From Candidatus Saccharimonadota bacterium (GTDB taxonomy: Bacteria; Patescibacteriota; Saccharimonadia; Saccharimonadales; JACOTW01), in NCBI GenBank assembly GCA_016178135.1, contig JACOTW010000004.1, forward strand, positions 2,681 through 66,680: a stretch of DNA of 64,000 bases, in the 5' to 3' direction. Under the pieces are notes generated by a model. It did no database searches, was not told the DNA's origin, and saw only the letters and a program-made list of their open reading frames with translations. This document shows, piece by piece, positions 196 to 55,833 of the stretch (within the stretch, counting starts at the first letter, position 1; each line of letters begins with the position of its first letter). The position numbers and the translations under genes were made by a program.

Positions 196-362
196 TATAG
201 CCCCCGCAAAACAAATTCGTGGGTTTTTGAAGCAATGATCTTTGAGTCAAAAACTGACTTTTCCGAGAGAGACATATCCTTAGATACGTTGAACGAAGAA
301 AGGCGGTTTTGGGCCAAAGAGGGTGATTCGAAAAGTCGGGAATTTGTTTTGCGGGGGCTATA
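196..362 (+). mobile_element. Family A palindromic TIR element (MITE-like), copy A1, subfamily 1, 167 bp
   Basis: It is bounded by TATAGCCCCCGCAAAACAAATTC and GAATTTGTTTTGCGGGGGCTATA, a perfect 23-bp inverted repeat. Seven other copies lie in the window. There is no transposase ORF. Confidence 0.85.
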
Positions 363-2757: not shown

Positions 2758-3288
2758 ATGGTAAAAACAAAAAAATCATTTTTAAACAAAGTTATTCTAG
2801 CAGTTGTCGTAGGATTACTTGTAGTTGTCGGGGTTTACGCATACAAAAACCGCTACAAGGAAAAACCTCAAACTGGTAGTCAATACGGACCCACCATGGA
2901 ACAGCAGAAACAAGAAGCCGATATCAATGCCCAGGCCAAAAAACAAGCTATTGAGAACGGTAACGGTTCATCCCAAGGAACAGAAATACCAGCTACTCCA
3001 AATTCTTCAGCTAACATAACTCTGTCAGCCCAAAAAGAATCCAACAACACCGTAACAATATTTACCAAGCTTGCAAAAATCAGTAACGGAACGTGCGAAC
3101 TTGCGGTTACTAACGGTACTAAACAAACCTCACAAACTGCTGAAGTTATTTACCAATCAGAATATTCCAGTTGCGCGGGATTTAGTGTTCCGATTGAAAG
3201 TGTTGGTTTGGGCATTTGGACTATCAAGCTGACCGTTACCTATGGCGGACAGTCAATATCAAACAGTATTACCTATGAGGTAAAATGA
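2758..3288 (+). CDS. Hypothetical membrane-anchored or secreted protein
   Basis: 176 aa with an N-terminal TM segment (VILAVVVGLLVVVGVYAY). Its stop overlaps the next start (ATGA). I recognised no motif. Confidence 0.5.
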   Translation: MVKTKKSFLNKVILAVVVGLLVVVGVYAYKNRYKEKPQTGSQYGPTMEQQKQEADINAQAKKQAIENGNGSSQGTEIPATPNSSANITLSAQKESNNTVTIFTKLAKISNGTCELAVTNGTKQTSQTAEVIYQSEYSSCAGFSVPIESVGLGIWTIKLTVTYGGQSISNSITYEVK

Positions 3289-5369
3289 TGTTGAAAAGAC
3301 TTTGCCTTTTTGCTGTACTAACTATAGTGGTCTCGGCCAGTTCTATTGTCGTTTTGGGGTCAAAAGCTGGTGCCGTCACTGCTACTGGCTGGAAAGCAGG
3401 CAGAATTATTGACGATATGGTCTTCACCAATAAAAATGCCATGAGCCTTAATGAAGTCCAGGATTTCTTGAATCAAAAAGTCGGCACCAACAGGGGCAAT
3501 TCATATTCAGTTCCAGGTGTATGCGATACAAATGGTACAAAAACCTCCGAGCTCGGTGGTGGGATAAGAGCACAATACGGAGCCTCTCGTGGTAATCCTG
3601 CGCCTTTCACCTGTCTCAAAGATTACTGGGAAGTACCCAAAACCGACCCAGCACCGGGCGTACCGGCCAGTAACTATGGTGGTGTGGCGATACCGACTGG
3701 AGCTAAAAGTGCTGCTCAACTTATATGGGAAGCTGGACAGCGCTATAACATCAGCCCTAAAGTCCTTTTGATAATGATCCAGAAAGAATCGGCTGGACCA
3801 CTTATTACGGATGATTGGCCATTTAGATCACAATACACCTATGCTATGGGGGCTCACTGTCCAGATAGTGGCCCAGGTGGCTCTGCTAATTGTGACCAAA
3901 ACTATGCTGGTTTTTCTATGCAAATTAACGAAAGTGCCCGTTTACTCCGCTACTATTTAGACAATATGAGTCAACCTTGGTGGAGCTATAAAAAACCTGG
4001 TATAAATAATATTTTATGGAATGTAGAGCCAACTGGTTGTGGCGGTGCAAACGTTAATATCGAAAACAAATCTACGGCAGCACTTTATACATACACCCCT
4101 TATCAGCCAAACCAAGCAGCTCTAAATAACATGTATGGCACTGGTGATGGTTGTAGTGCCTACGGTAATAGAAACTTCTGGCGAATGTATAACGATTGGT
4201 TCGGTCCTACCTTAGGTAGCCCACCAAATATCAATTGGAATTTTGAAACTCTTGATGGAACCGCTCAAAGTATAAGTACGGTTATAGGCTCAACAGGAAA
4301 CTACCCTTACACATTAACAGTAGGTGGCTGGTTGCATGTGTTTTATTATGATGTAGCTGGCGGTAATTTACGCCACGCTTGGATCGATCCAGCTGGTTGG
4401 CATTTTGAAACCATAGATGGTGCTGGTGGAGCTAATGGGCAAATTGATGCTGATGTTGGCGGAATGTCTAAAGCTATTGTATACAACAATCAGCTATATG
4501 TTATGTATCATGACTTCCAAAACAATAGTTTAAGAATCGCTTCATTAAGCGGAGGCATCTGGACGGCACAAACCCTAGATGGTACAGGTGGTACTAATGG
4601 ACGACTATCCGGCAATATGGGCTTAGATATTACAGCTATAACCAATGGAGATAGTCTACATCTATTTTATTCTGACGCTACCCAAGGCAATTTACGACAT
4701 GCATGGCACGATGGTTCGATATGGCGTTTTGAGAATCTTGATGGTACCCCAGCATCTATTGCTAGTAAAGACGGCAACATAGGTCAAGGCATTAAAGCCG
4801 AATTTATAGGCAATTCTATCCATGCTTTTTATTACGACGGTACTGCTGGTAATCTTAGGCATGCTTGGACTGACGCAAATGGTTGGCACTTTGAAGATTT
4901 AGATGGAAGCGGTAGCTCTGTTTCACGATATAACAGTACCCTAGGCTCCTCCCCTGAATTCGCTATATGGCAAGGCAGTTTGCATGTTTACTACCATGAT
5001 ATAGCCTACGGCACACTTAGGCATGCTTGGACTGACGCAAATGGTTGGCACTTTGAAGATTTAGATGGAAGCGGTAGCTCTGTTTCACGATACATCTCTA
5101 ACGTTGGGCTTCGTAGTAGTATAGTGATTGCTGGTAGCACTATGAATATTTTTTATGATGACGCTCCCACCAGATCCATAAGGCAGGCTTGGTTCGATGC
5201 TTATGGGTGGCATTTTATAAATATTGATGGTGAGTCAAATGCGGTATCTGGTACGGCCGGTCAATTTGGAGAATATTTATCTGCGACGTTGTTCATGCAA
5301 GATGTACAAGTATTTTACTTTAATGCTAGCGATTCCTCACTAAAGCATGCTTGGGGACCCCTGCGTTAA
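3285..5369 (+). CDS. Secreted protein: lysozyme/SLT-like N-terminal region plus about seven beta-propeller-like repeats
   Basis: 694 aa with a signal peptide. The IMIQKESAGP segment resembles the catalytic Glu-Ser region of lytic transglycosylases. The C-terminal half has a ~54-aa repeat, LH.FYYD...GNLRHAW.D..GWHFE.LDG, present about seven times. Confidence 0.6.
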   Translation: MMLKRLCLFAVLTIVVSASSIVVLGSKAGAVTATGWKAGRIIDDMVFTNKNAMSLNEVQDFLNQKVGTNRGNSYSVPGVCDTNGTKTSELGGGIRAQYGASRGNPAPFTCLKDYWEVPKTDPAPGVPASNYGGVAIPTGAKSAAQLIWEAGQRYNISPKVLLIMIQKESAGPLITDDWPFRSQYTYAMGAHCPDSGPGGSANCDQNYAGFSMQINESARLLRYYLDNMSQPWWSYKKPGINNILWNVEPTGCGGANVNIENKSTAALYTYTPYQPNQAALNNMYGTGDGCSAYGNRNFWRMYNDWFGPTLGSPPNINWNFETLDGTAQSISTVIGSTGNYPYTLTVGGWLHVFYYDVAGGNLRHAWIDPAGWHFETIDGAGGANGQIDADVGGMSKAIVYNNQLYVMYHDFQNNSLRIASLSGGIWTAQTLDGTGGTNGRLSGNMGLDITAITNGDSLHLFYSDATQGNLRHAWHDGSIWRFENLDGTPASIASKDGNIGQGIKAEFIGNSIHAFYYDGTAGNLRHAWTDANGWHFEDLDGSGSSVSRYNSTLGSSPEFAIWQGSLHVYYHDIAYGTLRHAWTDANGWHFEDLDGSGSSVSRYISNVGLRSSIVIAGSTMNIFYDDAPTRSIRQAWFDAYGWHFINIDGESNAVSGTAGQFGEYLSATLFMQDVQVFYFNASDSSLKHAWGPLR
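4854..5092 (+). repeat. Exact 77-bp direct repeat pair (4854-4930 and 5016-5092) inside the propeller-repeat CDS
   Basis: CTTAGGCATGCTTGGACTGACGCAAATGGTTGGCACTTTGAAGATTTAGATGGAAGCGGTAGCTCTGTTTCACGATA occurs twice. The offset is 162 bp, one repeat unit. Confidence 0.9.
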
Positions 5370-9134: not shown

Positions 9135-10292
9135 ATGCCAAAAAGGAAATTAAAAGTTTTTGTGGATGCTGAAGTCTTAATCGCTCCACATTTTAGTGGC
9201 ATCGGCCATTACACACTAGAGCTACTAAGAGCTCTGGACGGATTGATAGAAGATCGGTCAGATATAGAAATATCGCTTGGCGTTTATTATAAAAGGGTTG
9301 CCCAGATTAGAGCTTATGGATTCAGGAATTTCAAAATACGCAGATCGCCTTTTCCCTTAAGACTTTCAAACGCAATGAAAATTCGTGGCTGGCAACCATT
9401 CTATGATCTTTTTTTTGGTAAAAAAATCTATTTGTTTCCCAATTACACGTCTTGGCCATTATTATTCTCTAAATCAATTTCCATCGTATATGATCTTTCG
9501 TTTGAGTATTTTCCGCAGTACGTCGAGCCCCGCAATCAAAAATTTCTTAGTGATAATGTCAAAAAATCCGTAAAACGTTCAACAAAAATCATAACCATAT
9601 CAACAAATAGCCAAAAGGAAATCGTGAAATTCTATGGTATACCAAAAGGAAATGTTTCTATTGTATACCCAGGAGTTGACCAAAAAGAATTCTACAGACG
9701 ACCAGATAGCGAGATAAAAGACGTTATGGCACGTTATGGTATTCATGGTAAATATATTTTGTTTGTGGGTAATATCGAGCCAAGAAAGAACCTTAAAGGC
9801 TTGCTACTGGCCTATGAAAAACTAAGTGCCGACAGTCGCAAGCAATATTCACTATTACTTGTAGGTGCCAGAGGTTGGCTAGATGATGAAATCTTTGAAA
9901 TCATTGGACGCTTAAGAAAAAATGGCAACCACATCCAACAACCACTTGAATATGTCAATGACCATGACAGACCAGCAATATTTAGTGGGGCTTCGTTGTT
10001 CGTTTATCCCAGTCTTTATGAGGGTTTTGGTATTCCACCAATTGAAGCCATGGCCTGCGGAGTACCGGTAATTACCAGCAACAACTCATCCTTGCCGGAA
10101 GCCGTTGGCAAAGCGGCCACGATGGTAGATATCAAATCTATAGGTGATCTAGCCAATGCTATGAAATCCGTTTTAGGCAACCCAAAACTACAAGCAAATA
10201 TGATACAAGGCGGTTACCAGCAAGCAGATAAGTTCTCTTGGGACAATGAAGCCAAAAAATTACTGCGAATATTAGAGGATACAAACAATTGA
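9135..10292 (+). CDS. GT4 (GT-B) glycosyltransferase
   Basis: 385 aa with the EGFGIPPIEAMACGVPVITS motif (E-x7-E region) of family 4 transferases. Confidence 0.85.
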   Translation: MPKRKLKVFVDAEVLIAPHFSGIGHYTLELLRALDGLIEDRSDIEISLGVYYKRVAQIRAYGFRNFKIRRSPFPLRLSNAMKIRGWQPFYDLFFGKKIYLFPNYTSWPLLFSKSISIVYDLSFEYFPQYVEPRNQKFLSDNVKKSVKRSTKIITISTNSQKEIVKFYGIPKGNVSIVYPGVDQKEFYRRPDSEIKDVMARYGIHGKYILFVGNIEPRKNLKGLLLAYEKLSADSRKQYSLLLVGARGWLDDEIFEIIGRLRKNGNHIQQPLEYVNDHDRPAIFSGASLFVYPSLYEGFGIPPIEAMACGVPVITSNNSSLPEAVGKAATMVDIKSIGDLANAMKSVLGNPKLQANMIQGGYQQADKFSWDNEAKKLLRILEDTNN

Positions 10293-11623
10293 AAACTATT
10301 TGCTTTGACCTACGAGCCCTACAGATAGGCCATGAAAACCGCGGTATCGGAATGTATATAAAAAGCGTTCTCGAGAACATGCCAATAGATAAAAATAAAT
10401 ATATTTTCTACGCATTCGACAAAAATGATCCTATAAAAACTCTTGATATTAAATTTCAAAACACCTACGAGCTGATCCAAACACCTACAATAAAAACCGC
10501 CCTTGGTTCTCCCCGCGACATAATAGGGCTTATCAAACTTATCAATCATCGTTTTTACCCTCTTAAAAAAATAAATCCTGATGTATTTGTACAGTTTGAT
10601 TTCACACTTGGCATACCTAGGTGGAAAAAGACGAAAACAATAGTTGTTGGTTATGATTTGATACCGTTGATTATGAAGAACGAGTATCTACCCAGTGTAT
10701 CTTTTGCCCTAAAACACTCGGCACCACAACATCAAGGAATGCTGAAACATTTTGTGCGATCAATAGTTTTTAGATTGAAACATAAGTCTTTCGCTATCAA
10801 AAAGCCATCAATCATATTGCGTAAGCCCTTTATTGCCATGGTTCGCTCTATTTATTACCGCTTAAAATATCGGTTGCATTACAAAGTTTTTAAACGTGCT
10901 GACCGAATTGTCGCTATTTCTGAATCAACCGCAGAGGATTTCATCAATATCCTCGGAGTAAGCAGAAAAAAGGTGTCAAGCATTCCTCTTGCCCCAGTAT
11001 TGCCTGACGGCTCTCCGGACTTTTCCATTTCAAGGAAAATTTCTAAACCGTACGTTTTTTATATAGGTGGTACCGACAGCCGCAAAAAAATCCAAGATAT
11101 TATCTATGCTTTTAACATAGCTAAGGGACGCGGAGCGGATATCGCACTAGTACTTGCCGGAAATGAATTCAGTAAATTAGAGAGCCTACCAAACGTAGAG
11201 GGCAGGAACGCGATACTGAAAAGTCCTTACAGGCAAGATATACACCTTGTCGGATTTGTTAGCGACGCTCAAAAGATGGGTCTATATAAATCTGCCCACG
11301 CTTTCATATTCTGCACCATATACGAAGGTTTTGGCTTGCCAATAATAGAGGCTATGAGTGCCTCATGCCCAGTTATTAGCTATAATAATTCATCAATACC
11401 CGAAACTGCCGGTAACGCAGCCCTACTGGTTGACACGGGAGATTACGTAGCCATAGCCAATAAAATAATCGCCCTGGAAGATAAAAAATTAAAACAGGTA
11501 ATTATAGAAAAAGGCATAAAACAAGCAAATAAGTTTAACTGGAAGATTTATGTGACAGAATTTAAAAAAGTTCTGACAGGTATAGCCCCCGCAAAACAAA
11601 TTCGGGGGTTTTGGAGCCGATGA
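10289..11623 (+). CDS. GT4 glycosyltransferase whose last ~13 codons and stop lie inside element A2
   Basis: 444 aa with YEGFGLPIIEAMSASCPVISY. The C-terminus ...VLTG-IAPAKQIRGFWSR* is read from the A2 TIR. Confidence 0.8.
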   Translation: MKTICFDLRALQIGHENRGIGMYIKSVLENMPIDKNKYIFYAFDKNDPIKTLDIKFQNTYELIQTPTIKTALGSPRDIIGLIKLINHRFYPLKKINPDVFVQFDFTLGIPRWKKTKTIVVGYDLIPLIMKNEYLPSVSFALKHSAPQHQGMLKHFVRSIVFRLKHKSFAIKKPSIILRKPFIAMVRSIYYRLKYRLHYKVFKRADRIVAISESTAEDFINILGVSRKKVSSIPLAPVLPDGSPDFSISRKISKPYVFYIGGTDSRKKIQDIIYAFNIAKGRGADIALVLAGNEFSKLESLPNVEGRNAILKSPYRQDIHLVGFVSDAQKMGLYKSAHAFIFCTIYEGFGLPIIEAMSASCPVISYNNSSIPETAGNAALLVDTGDYVAIANKIIALEDKKLKQVIIEKGIKQANKFNWKIYVTEFKKVLTGIAPAKQIRGFWSR

Positions 11624-11747
11624 TCTTCGAGTCAAAAACTGGCTCTTCTGAGGGAAGCATATCATTAGATAAGGTGAGTGAGGAAAGACAGTTTTTGGCC
11701 GGAGAGGGCGGTTCAAAAAGCCGTTAATTTGTTTTGCGGGGGCTATA
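11581..11747 (+). mobile_element. Family A element, copy A2, subfamily 2, 167 bp
   Basis: It has the same TIRs as A1. The core is GGAGCCGATGATCTTCGAGTCAAAAACTGGCTCTTCTGAGGGAAGC... Confidence 0.85.
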
Positions 11748-16950: not shown

Positions 16951-18051
16951 ATGCCGAAAATTATGGTAACAGGAGTGAATGGATTTGTGGGCAAGCATCT
17001 GGTCCGTGAACTAGTGGCTCGAAAATGTACGGTTACTGGAGTTGGTCGTGATAAAAACGTCGATAAATCTTTGGAGAATATCGTATCGAACTATTATTCG
17101 TGTGATTTAACTGATAAATCCGCAGTAGCAATACTCCCGCTTGATTCAATTGATGCTGTTATAAACCTGGCTGGCCTGGCAAGAGTCGGAGAGTCTTTTG
17201 ATAAGCCAGATTTTTACAAACATGTTAATGTTGGCGTTTTATCTGTTCTATCGGAACGTCTATTGGCTTTATCTTCTGGGGCTCGTGTGATTGCCGTTAG
17301 CACAGGGGCGGTTTATGATCCTAGGCAACCTATGCCACTTAACGAAGGATCTATTCTACTGGACTTACGCAAAATCGCCCGTTCCCAGGGCAAATCAGCT
17401 CGAGTTGAGAGTGGTTTGACTGAAGGAGAGGTAGCCTTAGCTACATCGAAAGAAGACAGACCGCTACCGCTTGAGATTAGTTGGTCTGGGGATGGGGGAG
17501 CTTTGCGTAAGTCCAGTCTAATAACTTCTGGTTCTCCTTACGCACTTAGTAAGATTGATATGGAAATAGTAGTTTCGGATTTGAGAAGTAGAGGTTTGGA
17601 TTGTATTATAGCGCGACCATTTAATCATATAGGGCCAGGCCAAGACATCGGCTTCTTAGTCCCCGATTTATACACCAAAATCCTAAGGGCTAATCAGTCT
17701 GGTGGCACAATAGCCGTAGGTGACTTAACGACCAGACGGGATTATACCGACGTCCGAGATGTGGTGCGAGCATATGCGGACCTCGCAGTCGCCCCCACAT
17801 TGCAACATGCTGTTTATAACGTTTGTAGTGGCCGTAGCGTGTCAGGGGGAAAGATCCTGGAATTACTACTAAAAGAAACTGGTCAAGTGGGGAAAATTAA
17901 TGTTACCACCGATTCTGCTTTTATAAGGCCGAATGATCCCGAGGACTTATTTGGCAGCAATGAGCGCCTGCATAATGAAACTGGCTGGCAACCAACAATC
18001 CCGCTTGAGCAGACAATTACAGATTTTGTGAACTCTAAAAGCACTTATTAA
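16951..18051 (+). CDS. NAD-dependent sugar-nucleotide reductase/epimerase (extended SDR; Rmd-like by context), carrying in-frame element B2
   Basis: 366 aa with the Rossmann motif VTGVNGFVGKHL, a VSTGAVY segment and the catalytic PYALSK (YxxxK). About 53 codons between them come from the family B element. Confidence 0.7.
   Translation: MPKIMVTGVNGFVGKHLVRELVARKCTVTGVGRDKNVDKSLENIVSNYYSCDLTDKSAVAILPLDSIDAVINLAGLARVGESFDKPDFYKHVNVGVLSVLSERLLALSSGARVIAVSTGAVYDPRQPMPLNEGSILLDLRKIARSQGKSARVESGLTEGEVALATSKEDRPLPLEISWSGDGGALRKSSLITSGSPYALSKIDMEIVVSDLRSRGLDCIIARPFNHIGPGQDIGFLVPDLYTKILRANQSGGTIAVGDLTTRRDYTDVRDVVRAYADLAVAPTLQHAVYNVCSGRSVSGGKILELLLKETGQVGKINVTTDSAFIRPNDPEDLFGSNERLHNETGWQPTIPLEQTITDFVNSKSTY
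17357..17517 (+). mobile_element. Family B element, copy B2, full length, inside a CDS and in frame
   Basis: It runs TACTGGACTTACGCAAAATCGCCCGTTCCCAGGG...GTAGCCTTAGCTAC...GGGGAGCTTTGCGTAAGTCCAGT. The host ORF stays open through it. Confidence 0.85.
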
Positions 18052-19028
18052 CTTTCGAGTTTTAGATCGTGGTCGACCATCATTTTTACCAAACCCGGGA
18101 AGTCTACTTGACGTTTCCAGCCTAGCACTTTCTCGGCCTTAGTTGGGTTGCCGAGTAATATATCCACCTCGGCAGGACGCATGAAAGCAGGGTTTTGTTT
18201 GACGTAAGGCTTCCAATCATCAATGCCAATTTCTTTAAACGCAAGGTCTAGAAATTCACCAATAGTGTGTGTTTCACCTGTTGCTAGCACGTAATCATCT
18301 GGCTTGTCCTGTTGTAGTATCCGCCACATGCCCTCTACGTAATCACCAGCATAGCCCCAATCACGTTTGGGGTCCAAACTACCCAGCTCAATGTAGTCTT
18401 GCTTACCGAGCTTGATCCTTGCAACTGCATTACTAATTTTTCGCGTCACAAATTCTAAGCCTCTGCGCTCGCCCTCGTGATTGAACAAAATGCCACAGCT
18501 GGCGTGCATATCATAACTTTCACGGTAGTTTTTGGTAATCCAGTGGCCATATAGCTTGGCAACACCATACGGGCTTCGTGGATGGAACAGGGAGTCTTCA
18601 TCATAGCCTTTGCCGGGGCGATTGTAATCAAGTCCGCCGAACATTTCCGAGGTAGACGCCTGATAAAACCGCACCGATTTCTCTCCACCACTTAGTCTTA
18701 TGGCTTCTAGCATGTTTAGAACGCCCTTGCCTGTAACGTCAACGGTTAGTTGCGGGTTCTTAAACGAATATCCTACATGGCTTACAGCCGCGAGGTTATA
18801 GACCTCATCTGGCTTAGAAACTTCCATGGCGCGAATCAGAGATGATTGATCTGTTAGATCTGCTTCAATTATTGTGACATATGGAAATTCAGCCTCTGTT
18901 ATTTGGCGGCGTGGGTTATGCTGACCACGAATTATCCCAAAGACTTTGTAGCCTTTTTCATGCAACAGTTTTGCCAAATGCCCGCCATCCTGCCCAGTAA
19001 TACCCGTGATAAGTGCGTTCTTTGCCAT
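18048..19028 (-). CDS. gmd: GDP-mannose 4,6-dehydratase
   Basis: 326 aa. ALITGITGQDGGHLAKLLHEKGYKVFGIIR and SPYGVAKLY are characteristic of Gmd. Confidence 0.9.
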   Translation of the reverse strand: MAKNALITGITGQDGGHLAKLLHEKGYKVFGIIRGQHNPRRQITEAEFPYVTIIEADLTDQSSLIRAMEVSKPDEVYNLAAVSHVGYSFKNPQLTVDVTGKGVLNMLEAIRLSGGEKSVRFYQASTSEMFGGLDYNRPGKGYDEDSLFHPRSPYGVAKLYGHWITKNYRESYDMHASCGILFNHEGERRGLEFVTRKISNAVARIKLGKQDYIELGSLDPKRDWGYAGDYVEGMWRILQQDKPDDYVLATGETHTIGEFLDLAFKEIGIDDWKPYVKQNPAFMRPAEVDILLGNPTKAEKVLGWKRQVDFPGLVKMMVDHDLKLES

Positions 19029-19099
19029 TCCTCTCCCTTTGATTTATGCTGTTGTATATAACCATTCTAACAAACTAGGAATAAACGCGCTGGTGTAAT

Positions 19100-20197
19100 A
19101 TGAAAAAAATCGTTATTGACGCAAGAGAATTCGGAGGCACAGGCGGTGGGACATATCTCAAACATCTTCTTCAAAAACTTCAAGAAATAGACAATAATCA
19201 CAAATATGTGGTGCTACTAAAGCCCAAAGATATGGATAGCTGGAAGCCTGTTAATCGCAAGTTCGAAAAGCTACAATGTAATTACAAAGAGTTTACATTT
19301 GCCGAGCAAATTGGATTATTCAAACAACTTCGTAGTCTAAAAGCTGACCTCGTACACTTCCCTATGACCCAACAACCTGTGCTTTACCGCGGAAAAGTCG
19401 TAACAACAATAAACGATCTTACTACTGTGCGATTCCGTAATCCTAGCAAAAACTGGCTTATTTTTACTATAAAACGTTGGGTATATAAATGGGTTGCCTT
19501 GGTAGCTGCGCGAAAATCTAAAGCATTGTTAACATATACTGAATTCGTCAAAAACGATGTTGCCAAATTTGCCCACGTTAATAGTAGAAAAATTACCGTT
19601 ACTTATTTGGCGGCAGATAAAATTACCGAAGAACCTAGACCCGTAGAAAACTTGGAAAATGTGCAGTTTATTATGTACGTTGGGCGTCCCCAGCCACATA
19701 AAAACCTGGACCGTTTAGTAGAAGCTTTTACGTTGATAAAGCAAACCCACCCCGAGTTGAAATTAGTGCTGGCCGGCAAAAAAGATGTCTTGTACCGTCG
19801 CATAGCCACAAAGATTAAATACCGGAAAATTCCAGATATTATTTTTACTGGGTTTGTCGACGAAGGCCAATTACGTTGGCTGTACGAACATACAGCTTGC
19901 TATGTTTTTCCATCCTTGAGCGAGGGCTTTGGGCTGCCAGGCCTAGAGGCCATGAATCATGGAGCACCAGTAGTATCCAGCAACGCCACTTGTCTGCCAG
20001 AGGTCTATGGCGATGCTGCTGAATATTTCGACCCACTAAATGTTGAAGAAATGGCACAAGCTATAGCCAAAGTTATCGACAAACCAAAACGCCGCGATGA
20101 ATTAGTCGCCTTGGGCAAGAAACAAGCTAATAAATACTCCTGGCAGCGCATGGCCGAACAAACCCTGGCCGTCTACAAAGAAGCCTTAGGCGATTAA
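19100..20197 (+). CDS. GT4 glycosyltransferase
   Basis: 365 aa with SEGFGLPGLEAMNHGAPVVSS. Confidence 0.85.
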   Translation: MKKIVIDAREFGGTGGGTYLKHLLQKLQEIDNNHKYVVLLKPKDMDSWKPVNRKFEKLQCNYKEFTFAEQIGLFKQLRSLKADLVHFPMTQQPVLYRGKVVTTINDLTTVRFRNPSKNWLIFTIKRWVYKWVALVAARKSKALLTYTEFVKNDVAKFAHVNSRKITVTYLAADKITEEPRPVENLENVQFIMYVGRPQPHKNLDRLVEAFTLIKQTHPELKLVLAGKKDVLYRRIATKIKYRKIPDIIFTGFVDEGQLRWLYEHTACYVFPSLSEGFGLPGLEAMNHGAPVVSSNATCLPEVYGDAAEYFDPLNVEEMAQAIAKVIDKPKRRDELVALGKKQANKYSWQRMAEQTLAVYKEALGD

Positions 20198-20763
20198 GAA
20201 CTATGGTCTTTGAGCCATTTGGTAATCTCGTCGATGCCCAGGTGCTCAACAGCGACCTGAACTGCAAAGTCTTCGAGTTCACTTGGTTTGGCGGTAAGTT
20301 TTTTATGATTTCTCACTAAGAAAATTCCAACTATCGTAACGGCAGCCCGTTTATTGCCGTCAACGAAGGGATGATCACCAATTATATTTCGCAGATATAC
20401 CGCTGCTTTTTCTAAAACTGTGGGGTACTGTTCTGAGCCAAAAACTGTTTGCTGTGGGGCAGCCACAACAGACAATAACCGACCCTCGTCTCTAACGCCA
20501 TGAGAGCCCCCAAAATCTTCGATTATCCGGAAGTGCAACTTCAATATCTCTTCAGGGCTTAGATATAGCCCCCGCAAAACAAATTCCCGACTTTTCGAAT
20601 CACCCTCTTTGGCCCAAAACCGCCTTTCCTCGTTCAACGTATCTAAGGATATGTCTCTCTGGGAAAAGTCAGTTTTTGGCTCAAAGATCATTGCTTCAAA
20701 AACCTCAAAGATCATTGCTTCAAAAACCCACGAATTTGTTTTGCGGGGACTATAAGTTATCAT
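20194..20763 (-). CDS. doc: Doc/Fic-family toxin with a 63-codon in-frame family A insertion after codon 3
   Basis: It has the Doc-type Fic motif HPFVDGNKRAA. The N-terminus reads MIT-[YSPRKTNS...EFVLRGL]-YLSPEEILKLH. Its ATG overlaps the antitoxin stop (ATGA). Confidence 0.8.
   Translation of the reverse strand: MITYSPRKTNSWVFEAMIFEVFEAMIFEPKTDFSQRDISLDTLNEERRFWAKEGDSKSREFVLRGLYLSPEEILKLHFRIIEDFGGSHGVRDEGRLLSVVAAPQQTVFGSEQYPTVLEKAAVYLRNIIGDHPFVDGNKRAAVTIVGIFLVRNHKKLTAKPSELEDFAVQVAVEHLGIDEITKWLKDHSS
20564..20754 (-). mobile_element. Family A element, copy A3, subfamily 1, 191 bp (24-bp internal tandem duplication)
   Basis: Both TIRs are present. TCAAAGATCATTGCTTCAAAAACC is duplicated in tandem. 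The copy lies inside doc. Confidence 0.85.
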
Positions 20764-20975
20764 CTATCAGCAAGGTTTTTTAGAGTTTGGCCATATTCTT
20801 TGACAAACTTATTGTAATCTTCCATGAGCTTGTCATGGTCATCCTTTTTTAGGGACTCAACCATAACCTTGACTTCATCCCCATAAGAAATACCTTGGCG
20901 TTTCATCTCCTTTGCAGGGATAGTAACGCCACCGCTTGAACCTATTTTGATGACTTTTTGGATACTTTCAATCAT
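20760..20975 (-). CDS. AbrB/SpoVT-type antitoxin (Phd-role partner of Doc)
   Basis: 71 aa. KIGSSGGVTIPAKEMKRQGISYGDEV is a swapped-hairpin AbrB/MazE-like motif. It is translationally coupled to doc. Confidence 0.7.
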   Translation of the reverse strand: MIESIQKVIKIGSSGGVTIPAKEMKRQGISYGDEVKVMVESLKKDDHDKLMEDYNKFVKEYGQTLKNLADR

Positions 20976-28331: not shown

Positions 28332-28390
28332 TCGTTTTATTTTGTTCCTTCGGAGATAGCGTCATTAATCGGGGATGATGCCCCGGGTAT

Positions 28391-28579
28391 TATAGCCCCC
28401 GCAAAACAAATTCGTGGGTTTTTGAAGCAATGATCTTTGAGTCAAAAACTGACTTTTCCGAGAGAGACATATCCTTAGATACGTTGAACGAGGAAAGGCG
28501 GTTTTGGGCCAAAGAGGGTGATTCGAAAAGCCAAAGAGGGTGATTCGAAAAGTCGGGAATTTGTTTTGCGGGGGCTGTA
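28391..28579 (+). mobile_element. Family A element, copy A4, subfamily 1, 189 bp (22-bp internal tandem duplication)
   Basis: CCAAAGAGGGTGATTCGAAAAG is duplicated. The right TIR ends CTGTA and runs directly into a family B half element. Confidence 0.85.
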
Positions 28580-28663
28580 GCTAAGGCTACCTCTTCTTCA
28601 GTCAAACCACTCCCAACTCGAGCTGATTTGCCCTGGGAACGGGCGATTTTGGGTAAGTCCAGT
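28577..28663 (-). repeat. Family B half element (from the central palindrome to one TIR)
   Basis: GTAGCTAAGGCTACCTCTTCTTCAGTCAAACCACTCCCAACTCGAGCTGATTTGCCCTGGGAACGGGCGATTTTGGGTAAGTCCAGT is the reverse complement of the left half of B2. Confidence 0.8.
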
Positions 28664-28762
28664 TTATTCTCAATAGGTGCATTGACTAATGTAATGTAAA
28701 ACCCCACCCCGTAATAGCCCTCCATTATTATAAATACCCAGCTATAGCTTATTATATATAAT

Positions 28763-29335
28763 ATGCCGATTAGAAATAAAACTAGTGAAATTATCGATTT
28801 GTTTGTTGTTGGTGTCGCTACCGCTGGCGTAGTTGGCCTAACCATCATGGCGCCGAATAGTTTAGTGGCGCTAGAGAAGATATTGGACAATTTTCTAACC
28901 GGACGGGACAAAAAGCATGAAGCAAAAAGGATAGCTAAGTACCTGAAGCAGCGCAAGCTGGTTTCTGTAGAGGAACAAGTGGATGGTGATTATCGAGTAA
29001 CTTTGACAGATGGCGGCTCAAAACGAAGCCAAATTGCTTCTTTCGAACGTCTTGAACTTCCTAACATTAGGTGGGATGGCAAGTGGCGTATTGTAACATT
29101 TGATATCCCTGAACAGCACAAACAAGTTAGGGATTATTTATCCAGACATATGAAAAGGGTTGGGTTCAAGCAGCTGCAACGTAGTGTATTTGTTTATCCA
29201 TATGGTGTGGAGGAGTTTGTGGCAATCTTGTTCGATATTTATCCAGAAGTAAAAAAATACTTCGTCTATGCCGTGGCCGAAGATGTGAGTAATCACAATC
29301 AGCTAGTCAAACAATTCAAAAACATCCTCAGATAG
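28763..29335 (+). CDS. PaaX-like (winged-helix plus Cas2-like fold) putative regulator
   Basis: 190 aa. WDGKWRIVTFDIPEQHKQVRDYLSRHMKRVGFKQLQRSVFVYP resembles the PaaX-family C-terminal pattern. The start is uncertain. Confidence 0.5.
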   Translation: MPIRNKTSEIIDLFVVGVATAGVVGLTIMAPNSLVALEKILDNFLTGRDKKHEAKRIAKYLKQRKLVSVEEQVDGDYRVTLTDGGSKRSQIASFERLELPNIRWDGKWRIVTFDIPEQHKQVRDYLSRHMKRVGFKQLQRSVFVYPYGVEEFVAILFDIYPEVKKYFVYAVAEDVSNHNQLVKQFKNILR

Positions 29336-30036: not shown

Positions 30037-30992
30037 TACTTTTTCCTCCGCTTCTTTTTATAGGATGCTTTGGTTTTGTTGGGGTTTGTTGGTTTTTTAA
30101 TAACAACTTCACCATCAATAATATTTTTCTTGGGTGGCTGATCAGCTATTGCTTCCAGTTCTGTTTCGTCCTGCTTGAGCACACTAGATTGTTGGATGAA
30201 CGCAGTTAGGCCACTAATTAGCCAATACAAGCTAAGGGCTGAAGCAATATTGACGGTAAAGATAAAAATCATACCTGGTATAAGATATTTAGTATTCCGG
30301 CCGATAGCCGCATTAACTTCGGCCTGATCAGCCTCCTTGCCACCACCGGCATCTTTGAGTATTTGGCGTAATTTACGTCCATCTTTATTCTGTGGCATAA
30401 GTTGCTTGCTCTGATAATACTGGGCTACAGCACTGCCAATTACAATGAACATAGCCGGCCAGTATATACCACCATTCCCGAGTGCCGCTCTTTTAAGATC
30501 TATAACCCCAAATAGTGAGGCATCAAAACGGTTTATATCAACTGCCAGATCTTTCATCCAACCAAAATTATGTAACCAAGAATAAGAGAAGTCGATAATA
30601 GCTTGTGGATCATCAATAACCCGACGTAGTCCACTATAAAGCGCAATAAGAATAGGAATTTGCAAGATCAGAATACCGATTGATGAAAATGGACTAATCT
30701 GACGCTCTTTGTAAAGTTCCATGAGCATCATTGATTCTTTCTGACGATTACCCTTGGTGGCCTGTTTGATACGTTTTAACTCCGGCTGCAGTTCCCGCAT
30801 AGCCTTGGCGTGATGCAGTTGCTTCCTGATCAGTGGCCACATCAAAAGACGCACAACAATAGTGAATATAATAATAGCTAGGCCAAAATTATGTCCTGGC
30901 AGTATGGCATAGATAAAAACCAGCAGGTTGAAAATCGGTTGAATAATAAGAGTATTAAAAAAAGATGCGAACATAATTTCCCTTTCTTGCAT
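30036..30992 (-). CDS. yidC: Membrane protein insertase YidC
   Basis: 318 aa in the rnpA-yidC-jag order, multi-TM with a basic C-terminal tail KKKRRKK. The start may be the internal M at 30974. Confidence 0.85.
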   Translation of the reverse strand: MQEREIMFASFFNTLIIQPIFNLLVFIYAILPGHNFGLAIIIFTIVVRLLMWPLIRKQLHHAKAMRELQPELKRIKQATKGNRQKESMMLMELYKERQISPFSSIGILILQIPILIALYSGLRRVIDDPQAIIDFSYSWLHNFGWMKDLAVDINRFDASLFGVIDLKRAALGNGGIYWPAMFIVIGSAVAQYYQSKQLMPQNKDGRKLRQILKDAGGGKEADQAEVNAAIGRNTKYLIPGMIFIFTVNIASALSLYWLISGLTAFIQQSSVLKQDETELEAIADQPPKKNIIDGEVVIKKPTNPNKTKASYKKKRRKK

Positions 30993-31515
30993 CTATAATA
31001 TCACGCCTGTTGGGGAAAAAGCGTGAAAGCCCTATATATAGCCCCCGCAAAACAAATTCACGGCTTTTTGAACCGCCCTCTTCGGTCAAAAGCTGTTTTT
31101 CCTCACTCACCTTATCTAAGGATATGCTTCCCTCGGAAAAGCCAGTTTTTGACTCGAAGATCATCGGCTCCAAAACCACGTTGGCCTGCTTTAGCTGTGC
31201 CCTAACCAATCTATCAAGATCATCGAACGAAAGTTCAGCGACTTGCTCATGAAAAACGGTTATTACCAAATCGTATGGTTCAATTATTTTAGACTCGTAT
31301 TGACGAACGGCCTCATATAAACGACGACGAATACGATTACGCGTAACTGCCGATTTATTAACTTTTTTACTAACCACTATTGCTAAACGATATGTTTGCC
31401 GTCGATCATTGTGGGTATATTTTAGTGATGTCAGTGGACCACGTACAGTTTGCCCATGCCTGTAAACGTACTTTAGCGATCCGTAGCCATGAAAACGATG
31501 TTTGCGGCTAATCAT
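30955..31515 (-). CDS. rnpA: RNase P protein component, C-terminally extended by read-through into truncated element A5
   Basis: The first ~115 aa (RLAIVVSKKVNKSAVTRNRIRRRLYEA) look like a normal RnpA. A further 71 aa (LEPMIFESKTGFSEGS...EFVLRGLY...) are read from the family A element and the yidC leader. Confidence 0.8.
   Translation of the reverse strand: MISRKHRFHGYGSLKYVYRHGQTVRGPLTSLKYTHNDRRQTYRLAIVVSKKVNKSAVTRNRIRRRLYEAVRQYESKIIEPYDLVITVFHEQVAELSFDDLDRLVRAQLKQANVVLEPMIFESKTGFSEGSISLDKVSEEKQLLTEEGGSKSREFVLRGLYIGLSRFFPNRRDIIDARKGNYVRIFF
31037..31177 (-). mobile_element. Family A element, copy A5, subfamily 2, truncated (one TIR missing)
   Basis: One TIR is intact at 31037. The copy ends at ...GGCTCCAAAACC, about 25 bp short of the other TIR, where it is fused to rnpA coding sequence. 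Confidence 0.8.
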
Positions 31516-31804: not shown

Positions 31805-31968
31805 TACTGGACCTGTCGCAAAGCTCCCCCCATCCCGAGACCAATTCATCTCGGCTGGTAGCGGTCTGTCTTCTCTCGATGTAGCTAAGGCTACCTCCCC
31901 TTCAGTCAAACCACTCCCAACTCGAGCTGATTTAGCCTGGGAACGGGCGATTTTGCGATAGGTCCAGT
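31805..31968 (-). mobile_element. Family B element, copy B3 (TIR variant CTGGACCTGTCGCAAA), in the rpmH-dnaA spacer
   Basis: It runs TACTGGACCTGTCGCAAAGCTCCCCCCATCCCGAGACC...GTAGCTAAGGCTAC...GGGCGATTTTGCGATAGGTCCAGT. Confidence 0.8.
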
Positions 31969-41115: not shown

Positions 41116-41274
41116 ACACGAATTTCGCACTTTTCCATCGCTCCAGATGACACCTGACAGGCTACAGTCGCTCATTCCTCACTCAACATAACAATGGTTA
41201 TGTCTCCCTCGGATTGAACAACCGTAACCAGCCAGTTGCCACCTGGCATCAATGGCTAAGTGCGAAACTCGTGT
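41116..41274 (+). mobile_element. Family C palindromic TIR element, copy C1, 159 bp
   Basis: It is bounded by ACACGAATTTCGCACTTTTCCATCGC and GGCTAAGTGCGAAACTCGTGT. It fills the virB4-downstream gene spacer and abuts the virB4 stop. Confidence 0.8.
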
Positions 41275-43230: not shown

Positions 43231-43397
43231 TATAGCCCCCGCAAAACAAATTCGGGGGTTTTGGAGCCGATGATCTTCGAGTCAAAAACTGGCTTTTCCG
43301 AGGGAAGCATATCATTAGATAAGGTGAGTGAGGAAAGACAGCTTTTGACCGGAGAGGGCGGTTCAAAAAGCCGTGAATTTGTTTTGCGGGGGCTATA
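43231..43397 (+). mobile_element. Family A element, copy A6, subfamily 2, 167 bp, inside the T4SS operon
   Basis: Both TIRs are intact. It lies between 43477-44388 and virB4. Confidence 0.85.
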
Positions 43398-44388: not shown

Positions 44389-44435
44389 TAGCAAATTTGT
44401 CCACCCTTTAATTTGTGGTCGTGTATAGATTGAAT

Positions 44436-44590
44436 AGGACTTTCGCACTTTTTCATCGCAACAGACCACAGCTGATTGACTACAAATTGTCTGTATTTTC
44501 TCGGTGTACCTATTGGTACTCCTCAAGAATCCAAACAGTTTTCGTACCAATCATCTCTACTCTGTTATCAATGCAAAAGTGCGAAAGTTC
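44436..44590 (+). mobile_element. Family C element, copy C4 (divergent core)
   Basis: Its ends are GGACTTTCGCACTTTTTCATCGC and GCAAAAGTGCGAAAGTTC. Confidence 0.65.
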
Positions 44591-48673: not shown

Positions 48674-48829
48674 TATAGTCCCCGCAAAACAAATTCGTGG
48701 GTTTTTGAAGCAATGATCTTTGAGCCAAAAACTGACTTTTCCGAGAGAGACATATCCTTAGATACGTTGAACGAGGAAAGGCGGTTTTGGGCCAAAGAGG
48801 GTGATTCGAAAATCAAAAACGAGGCTATA
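48674..48829 (+). mobile_element. Family A element, copy A7, subfamily 1, with a degenerate right TIR
   Basis: The left TIR is TATAGTCCCCGCAAAACAAATTC. The right end is reduced to AATCAAAAACGAGGCTATA. It ends 10 bp before the first pilin ATG, in a divergent promoter region. Confidence 0.75.
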
Positions 48830-51603: not shown

Positions 51604-51859
51604 CGGATTTACGTAAAAAGCTCCCTTGTCCCCCAGACTGAATCGGCTCGAGCTATACTGGACCTGTCGCAAAGCTTCCCCATCCCCAGACCAAATAATC
51701 TCGGCTGGTAGCAGTCTGTCTTCTCTCGATGTAGCTATGGCTACCTCTCCTTCAGACAAAACAGTTTTCGCTCGAGATAATTCACTCTGGGAACGGACGA
51801 GTTTTCGTAAGTCCAGTCGAGCTGATTTAGCCTGGGAACGGGCGATTATCGCGTAAGTT
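51604..51859 (-). repeat. Cluster of family B sequences: partial + full copy B5 (51654-51817) + partial
   Basis: The full copy runs TATACTGGACCTGTCGCAAAGCTTCCCCATCCCCAGACC...GTAGCTATGGCTAC...GAGTTTTCGTAAGTCCAGT. It is flanked by GGATTTACGTAAAAAGCTCCCTTGTCCCCCAGAC... and CGAGCTGATTTAGCCTGGGAACGGGCGATTATCGCGTAAGTT. Confidence 0.75.
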
Positions 51860-52448: not shown

Positions 52449-52576
52449 TATAGCCCCTGCAAAACAAATTCGGGGGTTTTGTCAGGCTCTTAGGATATGC
52501 CTCAGTCGTTTAGGCAGCTTTTGGATTACTTGGATCATCAGACTGAAAAATGCCATTTTGTTTTGGGATGGCTATA
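52449..52576. mobile_element. Family A-related element, copy A8, divergent short form (128 bp)
   Basis: Its ends are TATAGCCCCTGCAAAACAAATTCGGGGGTTTTG and TTTTGTTTTGGGATGGCTATA. It lies in the hsp20/comF divergent promoter region. A family C TIR-like stub (GCGCAAAACTCGTGTT) follows at 52578-52593. Confidence 0.65.
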
Positions 52577-53400: not shown

Positions 53401-53416
53401 ATGCCCATTAATTCTA

Positions 53417-53962: not shown

Positions 53963-53973
53963 ATTCTGACTAT

Positions 53974-55809: not shown

Positions 55810-55833
55810 AAGCGTATTGTAGCATAAGGTAGT

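What the first reader, a model, noticed from the sequence alone, without database searches (positions are those of the whole stretch)
196..362. Family A: a 167-bp TIR-bounded palindromic element in 8 copies, stop-free in one frame of each orientation
Seen: copies lie at 196-362, 11581-11747, 20564-20754, 28391-28579, 31037-31177 (truncated), 43231-43397, 48674-48829 (degenerate end) and 52449-52576 (divergent, 128 bp). The ends are TATAGCCCCCGCAAAACAAATTC and its exact complement. There are two clear sequence subfamilies. Subfamily 1 cores contain ...GAAGCAATGATCTTTGAGTCAAAAACTGACTTTTCCGAGAGAGAC...; subfamily 2 cores contain ...GGAGCCGATGATCTTCGAGTCAAAAACTGGCT.TTC.GAGGGAAGC.... Two copies carry internal tandem duplications of 24 bp and 22 bp. 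No copy encodes a transposase.

If the flanking TA is a duplicated target, the net insertion is 165 bp, or 55 codons. In both subfamilies one frame per orientation has no stop. These read YSPRKTNSWVFEAMIFESKTDFSERDISLDTLNEERRFWAKEGDSKSREFVLRGLY and IAPAKQI...NLFCGGY.

Established: a TIR, a TA target and a ~150-bp non-autonomous architecture resemble the Correia elements of Neisseria. In-frame residence in genes resembles the Rickettsia palindromic elements.

Inference: this is a mobile, translatable palindromic element family. I know of no such family described for this kind of genome.
Basis: partly seen in the sequence, partly recalled or inferred. Interest (0 to 1): 0.85.

Follow-up and report, generated by a model that had tools for sequence, protein, structure and literature searches.

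The report
IS630-derived miniature transposon in Saccharibacteria genes
This repeat is a 167-bp miniature transposon left by an IS630-type insertion sequence in an ultra-small Saccharibacteria (candidate phyla radiation) genome; because it adds exactly 55 codons and is stop-free in three reading phases it can sit inside genes without breaking them, which is a known behaviour of such elements but apparently unreported in this bacterial group.

Summary
The 23-bp terminal inverted repeat (TIR) occurs 13 times where 0 are expected, and all 8 listed copies exist, in two subfamilies that are 83% identical.

It is a MITE, a non-autonomous miniature transposon. A roughly 1.1-kb insertion sequence with the same TIR and an IS630-family transposase (NCBIfam NF033545, 202 bits) is common in Patescibacteria contigs. 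No copy of it lies in the ~85 kb of this genome that I could read.

Mobility is shown by an empty site. A related contig reads AACT-TA-TCTAA where the window has AACT-TA[element]TA-TCTAA. So TA is duplicated, and the net insert is 165 bp (189 bp in that copy).

The element folds into a full-length hairpin (-81 to -89 kcal/mol, z about -10.8). Canonical copies are stop-free in three of six frames.

Copies sit in frame in a Doc toxin gene (+63 aa after codon 4), fused to rnpA, and at the end of a glycosyltransferase. Elsewhere they lie in a nadD-like gene and in a VanY stop codon.

ORF-carrying, in-frame MITEs are already known (RPE, ERIC, YPAL; RUP derives from IS630). Verdict: a new member of a known kind, of moderate interest.

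The parts
196..362 (+). Family A copy, subfamily 1. Full 167 bp with perfect 23-bp TIRs, in an intergenic position, followed directly by a Family B element.
   Evidence: Hairpin of -80.8 kcal/mol, z = -10.7.
11581..11747 (+). Family A copy, subfamily 2, 167 bp. It was inserted two codons before the stop of a GT4 glycosyltransferase gene. The gene now ends in 13 element-encoded residues (IAPAKQIRGFWSR) and a stop inside the element, in frame fwd1, which is closed. The reconstructed pre-insertion end is ...KKVLTGN*.
   Evidence: The record's own gene call also ends at 11623.
10289..11623 (+). GT4 glycosyltransferase ORF whose 3' end lies in the element at 11581.
   Evidence: Pfam Glycos_transf_1, 4.5e-24.
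20564..20754 (-). Family A copy, subfamily 1, 191 bp, with a 24-bp internal tandem duplication (20681-20728). It is inserted in frame (fwd0) after codon 4 of a Doc toxin gene. The net gain is 189 bp, or 63 codons.
   Evidence: The empty site in L041 is shown.
20194..20763 (-). Doc/Fic toxin ORF of 189 aa. It reads MITY + 63 element-encoded aa + LSPEEILKLHF... Uninterrupted homologues are 125-131 aa and start MITYL/MINYL.
   Evidence: Pfam Fic 1.7e-18 at residues 67-149. Homologues.
20760..20975 (-). 71-aa antitoxin-like ORF upstream of Doc. Its stop overlaps the Doc start (ATGA).
   Evidence: Read. The same 71-aa gene is called in L041.
28391..28579 (+). Family A copy, subfamily 1, 189 bp, with a 22-bp tandem duplication (28509-28552). 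It is intergenic and abuts a Family B copy. The 188-aa ORF 28390..28956(-) that covers it has no Pfam hit and is not called as a gene in the public record.
31037..31177 (-). Family A copy, subfamily 2, lacking its first 26 nt (one TIR is gone, so it is immobile). It is read in frame fwd0 as a continuation of rnpA.
30955..31515 (-). rnpA ORF of 186 aa. The RNase P protein domain occupies residues 4-111. It is followed by 47 element-encoded residues and 27 more before a stop.
   Evidence: Pfam Ribonuclease_P 6.1e-19. Translation.
43231..43397 (+). Family A copy, subfamily 2. Full 167 bp with perfect TIRs, lying between two minus-strand genes.
   Evidence: Hairpin of -89.2 kcal/mol, z = -10.9.
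48674..48829 (+). Family A copy, subfamily 1, with its right TIR mostly deleted. It lies in a divergent intergenic region.
52449..52576 (+). 128-bp relative that shares about 33 bp of the left end and a decayed right end with Family A and the IS. Its core is unrelated. The net length would be 126 bp, and only one frame is open.

Best explanation
Family A is a MITE, a non-autonomous deletion derivative that keeps only the ends of an IS630/Tc1-mariner-family insertion sequence circulating in Patescibacteria (CPR).

**Shown**
- Its 23-34-bp ends are identical to those of a 1.10-1.14-kb IS. That IS encodes a 345-348-aa HTH+DDE transposase.
- It inserts at TA and duplicates it.
- The unit is TA + 163 bp + TA, so each insertion adds 165 bp.
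- It occurs at 11 places in about 85 kb of this Saccharibacteria genome, and in at least two other Saccharibacteria assemblies, with 97-99% identity within a subfamily.
- The whole unit is an imperfect palindrome.

**Inferred from the IS630 family (ISY100 biochemistry, PMC2170065)**
- A transposase supplied in trans binds the TIRs through its N-terminal HTH domains.
- It cuts the element out and pastes it into a new TA.

**Consequence for host genes (shown at the sequence level)**
- The insert is 3n long and free of stops in three of six phases.
- An insertion into a coding sequence in those phases adds 55 residues without truncating the host protein.
- In the other three phases translation stops at once (the terminal TAG) or after 13 codons.
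- Surviving copies inside genes fit this. Insertions well inside a gene (Doc codon 4; nadD-like, 9 codons from the end) are in open phases. The one closed-phase insertion is 2 codons from a stop. One copy sits in the TA of a TAG stop codon, which the right-hand TA+G regenerates.

**Moderately supported (about 0.4)**
The open frames and 3n length persist because, in a gene-dense genome, copies and lineages that keep host ORFs intact are the ones not purged.
For: **TIR and copies**
- The TIR occurs 13 times against 0 expected.

**Autonomous partner**
- 14 full-length elements with both TIRs were found in genome and metagenome contigs.
- Their ORF matches Pfam DDE_3 plus HTH_29/32/33.
- It also matches NCBIfam NF033545 'IS630 family transposase', an equivalog model, at 202 and 185 bits against a cutoff of 100.
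- A source names it 'IS630 family transposase [Patescibacteria group bacterium]'.

**TA duplication and empty site**
- L041 reads GATAGATGATAACT-TA-TCTAAAC. The window reads GATAGATGATAACT-TA[...]TA-TCTAAGC.
- The flanks are 93% and 86% identical, and the alignments break exactly at the element ends.
- About 1300 Doc homologues are 125-131 aa long, and the closest start MITYL.

**Hairpin**
- The folds are -80.8 and -89.2 kcal/mol, with z = -10.7 and -10.9.
- 98.4% of cells are paired across 9 copies, and 3 pairs show compensatory changes between subfamilies.

**Open frames**
- Frames fwd0, rev0 and rev1 are open in both subfamilies and in the copies from L003, L039 and L040.
- P(at least 3 open frames) is 0.005 in whole-element dinucleotide shuffles, 0.02-0.03 in core-only shuffles, and 0.003-0.011 in palindrome-preserving shuffles.

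**In-frame residence**
- In the window: Doc and rnpA.
- Outside the window: the nadD-like protein P0001 and VanY P0002.

**Exclusions**
- No Rfam family matches.
Against: - **No partner in this genome so far.** No transposase copy was found in the window, L040, L003 or L039. A partner in the same genome is therefore not demonstrated, and the copies could be relics.
- **The core is not traced to the IS.** The roughly 100-bp core has no counterpart in the sampled IS copies. Derivation from the IS rests on the ends only.
- **Selection on open frames is not established.**
  - After 28 random substitutions all three frames stay open in 6-15% of simulations.
  - The subfamilies represent only two lineages.
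  - The related MITEs at 52449 and in L031 are not open.
  - Single copies have acquired stops.
- **Translation is not shown.** No element-encoded segment has been seen as protein. A -80 kcal/mol hairpin 10 nt after the Doc start codon may in fact silence that gene.
Confidence: 0.88

Rival explanations
1. The element is an ordinary IS630-derived MITE, and its three open frames and 3n length are accidents of one successful founder sequence. The founder has low TA content, purine-rich arms and TIRs that are coding in the parent IS. In-frame residence is then just what survives purifying selection on host genes, and the element itself has no adaptation.
For: - The criterion of at least one open frame per orientation is met in 4-20% of shuffles.
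- All three frames stay open in 6-15% of substitution simulations.
- Relatives with the same TIRs, 52449 and L031, have 1 and 0 open frames.
- The TIR part of frame 0 (EFVLR) is the C-terminus of the transposase in the parent IS.
- Family B copies in the same window have only 1-2 open frames and variable lengths.
Against: - Three open frames of six is seen in only 0.3-3% of shuffles under every null tried.
- All three open phases are actually used in host ORFs.
- The net lengths of three different relatives are all multiples of three: 165, 126 and 153. The Doc copy stays in frame despite a duplication, because that duplication is 24 bp.
Confidence: 0.5
2. The repeat is a structured non-coding RNA gene or cis-regulatory hairpin, such as a terminator, an RNase III site or an sRNA. 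On this view it is dispersed and conserved for its RNA function, not because it is a transposon.
For: - The hairpin is very stable (z about -10.8).
- Pairing is kept between subfamilies through 3 compensatory changes and about 7 G-U-compatible changes.
- MITE hairpins are known to affect mRNA processing in Neisseria and Yersinia (PMC2229807).
Against: - The ends are identical to those of a transposase-bearing IS, and there is a TA duplication with an empty site.
- Copies occur in both orientations relative to transcription, roughly 5 sense and 4 antisense by my tally.
- Copies lie inside coding sequences.
- No Rfam family reaches threshold. The best hit is the plant miRNA precursor MIR4208 at 32.7 bits against a gathering score of 140.
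- A secondary RNA-level effect is not excluded.
Confidence: 0.07
3. The shared sequence is a mobile protein-coding module: a 55-aa peptide domain spread among proteins by recombination, with the nucleotide repeat as a by-product.
For: Element-encoded peptides are annotated as parts of four or five different proteins.
Against: - The same DNA is read in three different phases and in both orientations in different hosts.
- Most copies are intergenic.
- Identity is at the nucleotide level (97-99%) between unrelated host genes.
- The peptide search of 5.8 billion proteins found only 3 carriers.
- Homologues of the host proteins lack the segment.
Confidence: 0.02

Closest known systems
RUP (repeat unit of pneumococcus), a MITE related to IS630-Spn1
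   Same: It is a non-autonomous element of 100-170 bp whose TIRs match those of an IS630-family IS. It targets TA and is presumed to be mobilised in trans (PMC2229807; here).
   Different: RUP is 107 bp, intergenic and listed as having no open reading frame (Table 1 of PMC2229807). Family A is 167 bp, open in three phases and found inside genes. The hosts belong to different phyla. I made no sequence comparison with RUP.
Rickettsia palindromic elements (RPE)
   Same: They are palindromic repeats of about 150 bp, in a small genome, that carry an ORF and are found inserted in frame in conserved protein genes (PMC2229807, PMC10969869). Here the hosts are Doc, rnpA, the nadD-like gene and VanY.
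   Different: RPEs have short TIRs (about 12 bp), an uncertain TSD and no identified autonomous partner. Family A has 23-34-bp TIRs, a proven TA duplication and an identified IS630 partner. The RPE insertions reported number 19-44 genes per genome. Here there are few, and they are mostly near gene ends. For one RPE host, gmk, translation and enzyme activity were shown experimentally. Nothing of that kind is available here.
Correia/NEMIS elements of Neisseria
   Same: They have TIRs of about 24-26 bp, TA at the termini with a TA target duplication, a length of 107-155 bp and long stem-loop transcripts. The 107-bp form has ORFs that are fused to host ORFs (PMC2229807).
   Different: The Correia TIR sequence differs; from my memory the two share only the first few bases (TATAG). 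Correia elements carry IHF and promoter motifs that I did not look for here. No cognate transposase is known for Correia, whereas one is evident here.
ERIC/IRU and YPAL (enterobacterial MITEs with ORFs)
   Same: [quoted passage not shown]
   Different: Their TIRs are short (7 bp), no IS630 partner is known, and their hosts are Gammaproteobacteria.
ISY100/IS630 (autonomous bacterial Tc1/mariner-type IS)
   Same: The partner IS found here has the same architecture: about 1.1 kb, a single HTH+DDE transposase, TIRs and a TA duplication. ISY100 biochemistry provides the mechanism assumed here (PMC2170065).
   Different: Family A itself carries no transposase. The Patescibacteria IS is a distinct lineage whose members share 46-100% amino-acid identity among themselves.

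Membership tests
Bacterial MITE (miniature inverted-repeat transposable element) | Small (under about 300 bp), multicopy, with no transposase gene | tested here: met
   There are 8 copies of 128-191 bp in the window, 3 more in L040 and copies in L003 and L039. tblastn finds no transposase in the window.
Bacterial MITE (miniature inverted-repeat transposable element) | Terminal inverted repeats | tested here: met
   The TIRs are a perfect 23 bp, extending to about 32 bp.
Bacterial MITE (miniature inverted-repeat transposable element) | Target-site duplication demonstrated by comparing filled and empty sites | tested here: met
   The L041 empty site has a single TA, and the window has TA-element-TA. 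The flanks are 86-93% identical.
Bacterial MITE (miniature inverted-repeat transposable element) | TIRs shared with an autonomous IS | tested here: met
   14 elements of 1.10-1.14 kb have the same 23-34-bp ends.
IS630/Tc1-mariner-derived element | The partner transposase belongs to the IS630 family (HTH + DDE_3) | tested here: met
   NF033545 equivalog at 202 and 185 bits against a cutoff of 100. Pfam DDE_3 at 2.8e-22 plus HTH_29/32/33.
IS630/Tc1-mariner-derived element | Insertion into TA with a 2-bp TA duplication | tested here: met
   The empty site shows it. All full copies and all IS copies are flanked by TA, and the bases beyond vary.
IS630/Tc1-mariner-derived element | A cognate transposase present in the same genome, giving trans-mobilisation now | tested here: inconclusive
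   None was found in the roughly 85 kb of this genome available (window plus L040), nor in L003 or L039. The rest of the genome could not be read.
IS630/Tc1-mariner-derived element | The transposase binds and mobilises the element | not testable with these tools
   This needs EMSA or a transposition assay, as was done for ISY100 (PMC2170065).
Rickettsia palindromic elements (RPE) | Sequence membership in one of the RPE families of Rickettsia | not tested
   No RPE sequences were compared. The host is a Saccharibacteria MAG, and the element's ends derive from a Patescibacteria IS630 element, so membership is not expected.
Rickettsia palindromic elements (RPE) | In-frame insertion in conserved protein genes with the host ORF preserved | tested here: met
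   Doc gains 63 aa after codon 4. The nadD-like protein gains 55 aa with its last 9 codons retained. VanY is extended by 55 aa through its stop codon.
Rickettsia palindromic elements (RPE) | The inserted segment is translated and the host protein remains functional | not testable with these tools
   No proteomic or biochemical data are available.
Known structured RNA family (Rfam) | A match at the family's gathering score | tested here: not met
   Only tRNAs reach gathering score in the window. The best hit for the element is MIR4208 at 32.7 bits against 140.

The most novel reading that the evidence does not exclude
Family A may be a lineage of 'coding-compatible' selfish DNA. It adds an exact multiple of three bases, it is stop-free in three of six phases, and the remaining phases terminate at once. 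Such an element can colonise the coding sequences of ultra-compact CPR genomes, which have almost no intergenic space. It would then routinely add 55-residue segments to proteins, as a CPR counterpart of the Rickettsia RPEs. Selection would act on the element to keep this property. A second family (B) in the same genome does the same thing in an epimerase gene.
Probability: 0.3. Interest if true: 0.6.

Novelty: new member of a known kind. Interest (0 to 1): 0.42.

Why it matters
CPR/Patescibacteria genomes are about 1 Mb, gene-dense and usually described as streamlined. Here one 64-kb stretch carries 8 copies of one MITE family and at least two further repeat families. Some copies lie inside genes, including the essential rnpA.

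This matters in several ways:
- **An unusually complete case.** It is a clean, sequence-level example of a bacterial MITE with an identified IS630 partner, a proven TA duplication and in-frame residence in genes. That combination is rarely documented together; RPE and Correia lack a known partner.
- **A natural system for an open question.** It could be used to ask whether selfish DNA adapts to compact genomes by becoming translatable.
- **A practical caveat for annotation.** Public annotations already contain chimeric proteins with MITE-encoded tails: a 173-aa Doc, a 186-aa NadD-like protein and a 312-aa VanY.
- **A practical caveat for assembly.** Assemblies break or differ at these repeats.

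Tried and rejected
- **Viral contigs, plasmids and phages.** Neither the TIR nor the element matches anything.
- **Core versus IS.** blastn-short finds only the 23-34-bp ends in the IS copies, so the origin of the core is unknown.
- **Peptide search.** I searched a concatenation of all three open-frame peptides from both subfamilies. Only 3 proteins passed, and only 8000 word-sharing candidates were scored. This is therefore a lower bound, and it missed this window's own Doc and rnpA ORFs.
- **Exact look-ups that found nothing.** The GT4 ORF, P0003 and P0004 were not on record.
- **A second empty site through synteny.** I looked around the Doc homologue P0009, but the locus is not syntenic and belongs to a different organism with chemotaxis genes.
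- **Orientation bias relative to transcription.** None is evident, at about 5 sense and 4 antisense.
- **Substitution simulation as a test of selection on open frames.** It was not significant (P = 0.06-0.15).
- **Family B as a replicate of the pattern.** Its lengths run from 160 to 176 bp and only 1-2 frames are open. It supports in-frame residence but not multi-phase openness.

Full report
**1. The observation**

The 23-mer TATAGCCCCCGCAAAACAAATTC occurs 13 times in the window with at most one mismatch. Dinucleotide-preserving shuffles give none.

- Three are canonical 167-bp units, at 196, 11581 and 43231.
- Two carry exact internal tandem duplications. The copy at 20564 has a 24-bp duplication and the copy at 28391 has a 22-bp one.
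- The copy at 31037 has lost one TIR.
- The copy at 48674 has a degenerate right end.
- The copy at 52449 is a 128-bp relative that shares only the ends.

The copies at 20564 and 31037 are inverted relative to the rest. The two subfamilies differ at 28 of 167 positions. Within a subfamily the copies are 94-99% identical.

**2. What it is**

A scan of one genome per species for the exact TIR returned only Patescibacteria (CPR) assemblies. A metagenome scan returned 31 more contigs.

In 14 of these loci the TIR and its inverted partner lie 1.10-1.14 kb apart and enclose one ORF of 345-348 aa. That ORF was classified as follows:
- It has Pfam DDE_3 plus winged-helix and homeodomain-like HTH domains.
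- It passes the NCBIfam equivalog model for IS630-family transposases by a wide margin, at 202 and 185 bits against a cutoff of 100.
- A public source names it an IS630 family transposase of a Patescibacteria bacterium.

These IS copies are diverse, at 46-100% protein identity, yet they keep the same ends. In every copy the outermost TA is conserved and the next bases vary. This is the signature of the TA target duplication of this family, which has been shown biochemically for ISY100 (PMC2170065).

The MITE shares 23-34 bp with the IS at each end and nothing in its core of about 100 bp. No transposase homologue is present in the window, in the adjacent 20 kb of the same contig, or in the two other Saccharibacteria loci that carry the MITE.

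**3. Source of the window**

An exact protein look-up places the window on NCBI contig JACPYE010000004.1 of assembly GCA_016196105.1. Proteins from it are labelled Candidatus Saccharibacteria bacterium.

The stretch just upstream of the window (L040) holds three more Family A copies. That gives 11 copies in about 85 kb.

Nearly identical subfamily-1 copies occur in two other Saccharibacteria assemblies, L003 and L039. Nothing else in those loci matches at the nucleotide level except Family B.

**4. Mobility**

The copy at 20564-20754 lies inside a Doc (death-on-curing) toxin gene. I removed the element and one TA to reconstruct the protein MITYLSPEEILKLHF... and searched with it.

That search gave about 1300 homologues of 125-131 aa at full coverage. 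The closest, at 87% identity, begin MITYL and MINYL.

The contig encoding the closest homologue (L041) reads ...GATAGATGATAACT TA TCTAAAC.... The window reads ...GATAGATGATAACT TA[TAGTCC...GGGCTA]TA TCTAAGC.... The flanks are 93% and 86% identical, and the alignments stop exactly at the element ends.

This is a filled/empty pair with TA duplicated. The net insert is 165 bp for the canonical unit. It is 189 bp here, because the 24-bp duplication keeps the length a multiple of three.

**5. Structure**

Both subfamilies fold end to end into a single hairpin. The energies are -80.8 and -89.2 kcal/mol against shuffle means of -39 and -44, so z is -10.7 and -10.9.

Across nine copies, 98.4% of pair cells are standard pairs. 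Three pairs show changes on both sides between subfamilies, and about seven more change through G-U. With only two lineages this is consistent with maintenance of the palindrome but is not strong proof.

No Rfam family is matched. The only sub-threshold hit is a plant miRNA-precursor hairpin at 32.7 bits against a gathering score of 140.

**6. Reading frames**

Canonical copies are stop-free in three of six phases, not two:
- fwd0: YSPRKTNSWVFEAMIFESKTDF...EFVLRGL
- rev0: YSPRKTNSRLFESPSLAQNRLS...EFVLRGL
- rev1: IAPAKQIPDFSNHPLWPKTAF...NLFCGGY

The same holds for the copies in L003, L039 and L040. Of the closed phases, fwd2 and rev2 begin with the terminal TAG, and fwd1 stops after 13 codons.

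Against shuffles:

| Test | Null model | Result |
|---|---|---|
| Three or more open frames | whole-element dinucleotide shuffles | 0.5-0.7% |
| Three or more open frames | core-only shuffles | 1.8-3.2% |
| Three or more open frames | palindrome-preserving shuffles | 0.3-1.1% |

An evolutionary test is weaker. After 28 random substitutions with the observed transition/transversion mix, all three frames stay open in 6-15% of trials.

Relatives with the same TIRs but other cores have one open frame (52449) or none (L031). Their net lengths, 126 and 153 bp, are also multiples of three.

The TIR portion of frame 0 (EFVLR) is the C-terminus of the transposase in the parent IS. There the ORF runs into the TIR and stops at a TAG supplied by a TIR variant.

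**7. Where the copies sit**

In the window:
- **196, 28391, 43231, 48674, 52449:** intergenic. The ORFs that cover 196 and 28391 have no Pfam hits. The public record does not call the ORF over 28391 as a gene.
- **11581:** entered a TA two codons before the stop of a GT4 glycosyltransferase, in the closed phase fwd1. It replaced N* with IAPAKQIRGFWSR*.
- **20564:** in phase fwd0 after codon 4 of Doc, adding 63 residues while the rest of the 126-aa protein stays in frame.
- **31037:** lacks one TIR and is read in fwd0 directly after the complete RNase P protein domain of rnpA. This gives a 74-residue tail.

Outside the window:
- **nadD-like adenylyltransferase:** carries the element in phase rev1, nine codons before its stop, and its last nine codons are preserved.
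- **VanY-type carboxypeptidase (another Saccharibacteria genome):** carries the element in phase rev0, exactly in the TA of its TAG stop codon. The right-hand TA plus G regenerates the stop, giving a 55-residue extension.
- **DHH phosphoesterase:** was annotated with a start codon inside a copy.

All three open phases are therefore used in host ORFs. The only closed-phase insertion in a gene is at the extreme 3' end. The numbers are small, and translation has not been observed. In Doc, a hairpin of about -80 kcal/mol begins 10 nt after the start codon and may well silence the toxin.

**8. Mechanism**

*Shown.* This is a non-autonomous element with the ends of an IS630-family IS. It has a TA target duplication and at least one insertion that is absent from a related genome. 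Copies are multiple and near-identical within and between genomes. The unit is 3n long and open in three phases, and it lies in frame in host genes.

*Inferred from the family.* A transposase supplied in trans recognises the TIRs through its HTH domains. It moves the element by cut-and-paste into TA (PMC2170065).

*Inferred, about 0.4.* The open phases and 3n length persist because, in a genome with very little intergenic DNA, only insertions that keep host ORFs intact escape purifying selection. Element lineages with this property therefore leave more surviving copies. The main rival is that this is a founder accident.

**9. Comparison with known elements**

Reviews state that many bacterial MITEs carry contiguous ORFs found fused in frame to host ORFs. 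Examples are RPE, ERIC, YPAL and the 107-bp Correia form. RUP of S. pneumoniae is a MITE tied to IS630-Spn1 by TIR similarity and TA targets (PMC2229807, PMC10969869).

Family A combines the RUP-type origin with RPE-type behaviour. It is not a member of any of those sequence families.

Full-text searches found no paper that combines MITE terms with Saccharibacteria, Patescibacteria or CPR. That library does not include most subscription journals.

**10. Verdict**

The kind of element is known, however. I rate it a new member of a known kind, with moderate interest (0.42). It could rise if a genome-wide census shows selection for translatability.

Noticed in passing
window 17358-17517 (also 390-560, 16861-, 28576-28664, 31805-31968, 48582-, 50597-50745, 51651-51818, 53436-53536; L003 979-1133; L039 20437-20600): There is a second repeat family ('B'), about 160 bp long, with ends ACTGGACTTACGCAAAATC...TTTGCGTAAGTCCAGT. 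The copy at 17358-17517 lies in frame inside the NAD-dependent epimerase gene 16951..18051. It adds 54 residues (LLDLRKIARSQGKSARVESGLTEGEVALATSKEDRPLPLEISWSGDGGALRKSS). It is flanked by CT on both sides, so the net gain is 162 bp. Other copies are 160-176 bp long and have only 1-2 open frames.
   Followed up: partly
window 20704-20797 and 28531-28644: The public record JACPYE010000004.1 (L036) is 100% identical to the window over 21 kb, except that it lacks these two stretches of 94 and 114 bp. Each missing stretch starts exactly at the junction between the two units of the 24-bp or 22-bp tandem duplication inside a Family A copy, and each ends outside the element. Another NCBI protein (P0004, on an 88.8-kb contig) does contain the 24-bp duplication. 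Whether these are real haplotypes, hairpin-driven deletions or assembly differences is unresolved.
   Followed up: partly
window 41117-41283, 53976-54143, 44435-44513: There is a third repeat family ('C'), with two copies about 90-94% identical over about 165 bp and a weaker third copy. I did not characterise it.
   Followed up: no
L002 6226-6248, L004 53-75, L006, L025, L026: In the autonomous IS the transposase ORF runs into the terminal inverted repeat and ends ...PEFVLR*. The TAG stop is supplied by a variant of that TIR, GCTACC in place of GCCCCC. The two TIRs of these IS copies therefore differ by 2 nt for a coding reason.
   Followed up: partly
L037, L038 (Logan contigs equal to window 17491-20590 and 17524-20590): Independent short-read assemblies of the same organism break exactly inside a Family B copy at one end and a Family A copy at the other. 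These MITEs fragment CPR assemblies.
   Followed up: no
window 4854-5107: There is a 92-bp direct repeat, 92% identical and spaced 162 bp apart, inside the 694-aa ORF 3285..5369. It reflects tandem 54-residue protein repeats (LRHAWTDANGWHFEDLDGSGSS...).
   Followed up: no
window 53313-56530: A cluster of four tRNA genes lies here. A truncated Family B copy (53436-53536) sits close to the tRNA gene at 53313-53400.
   Followed up: no
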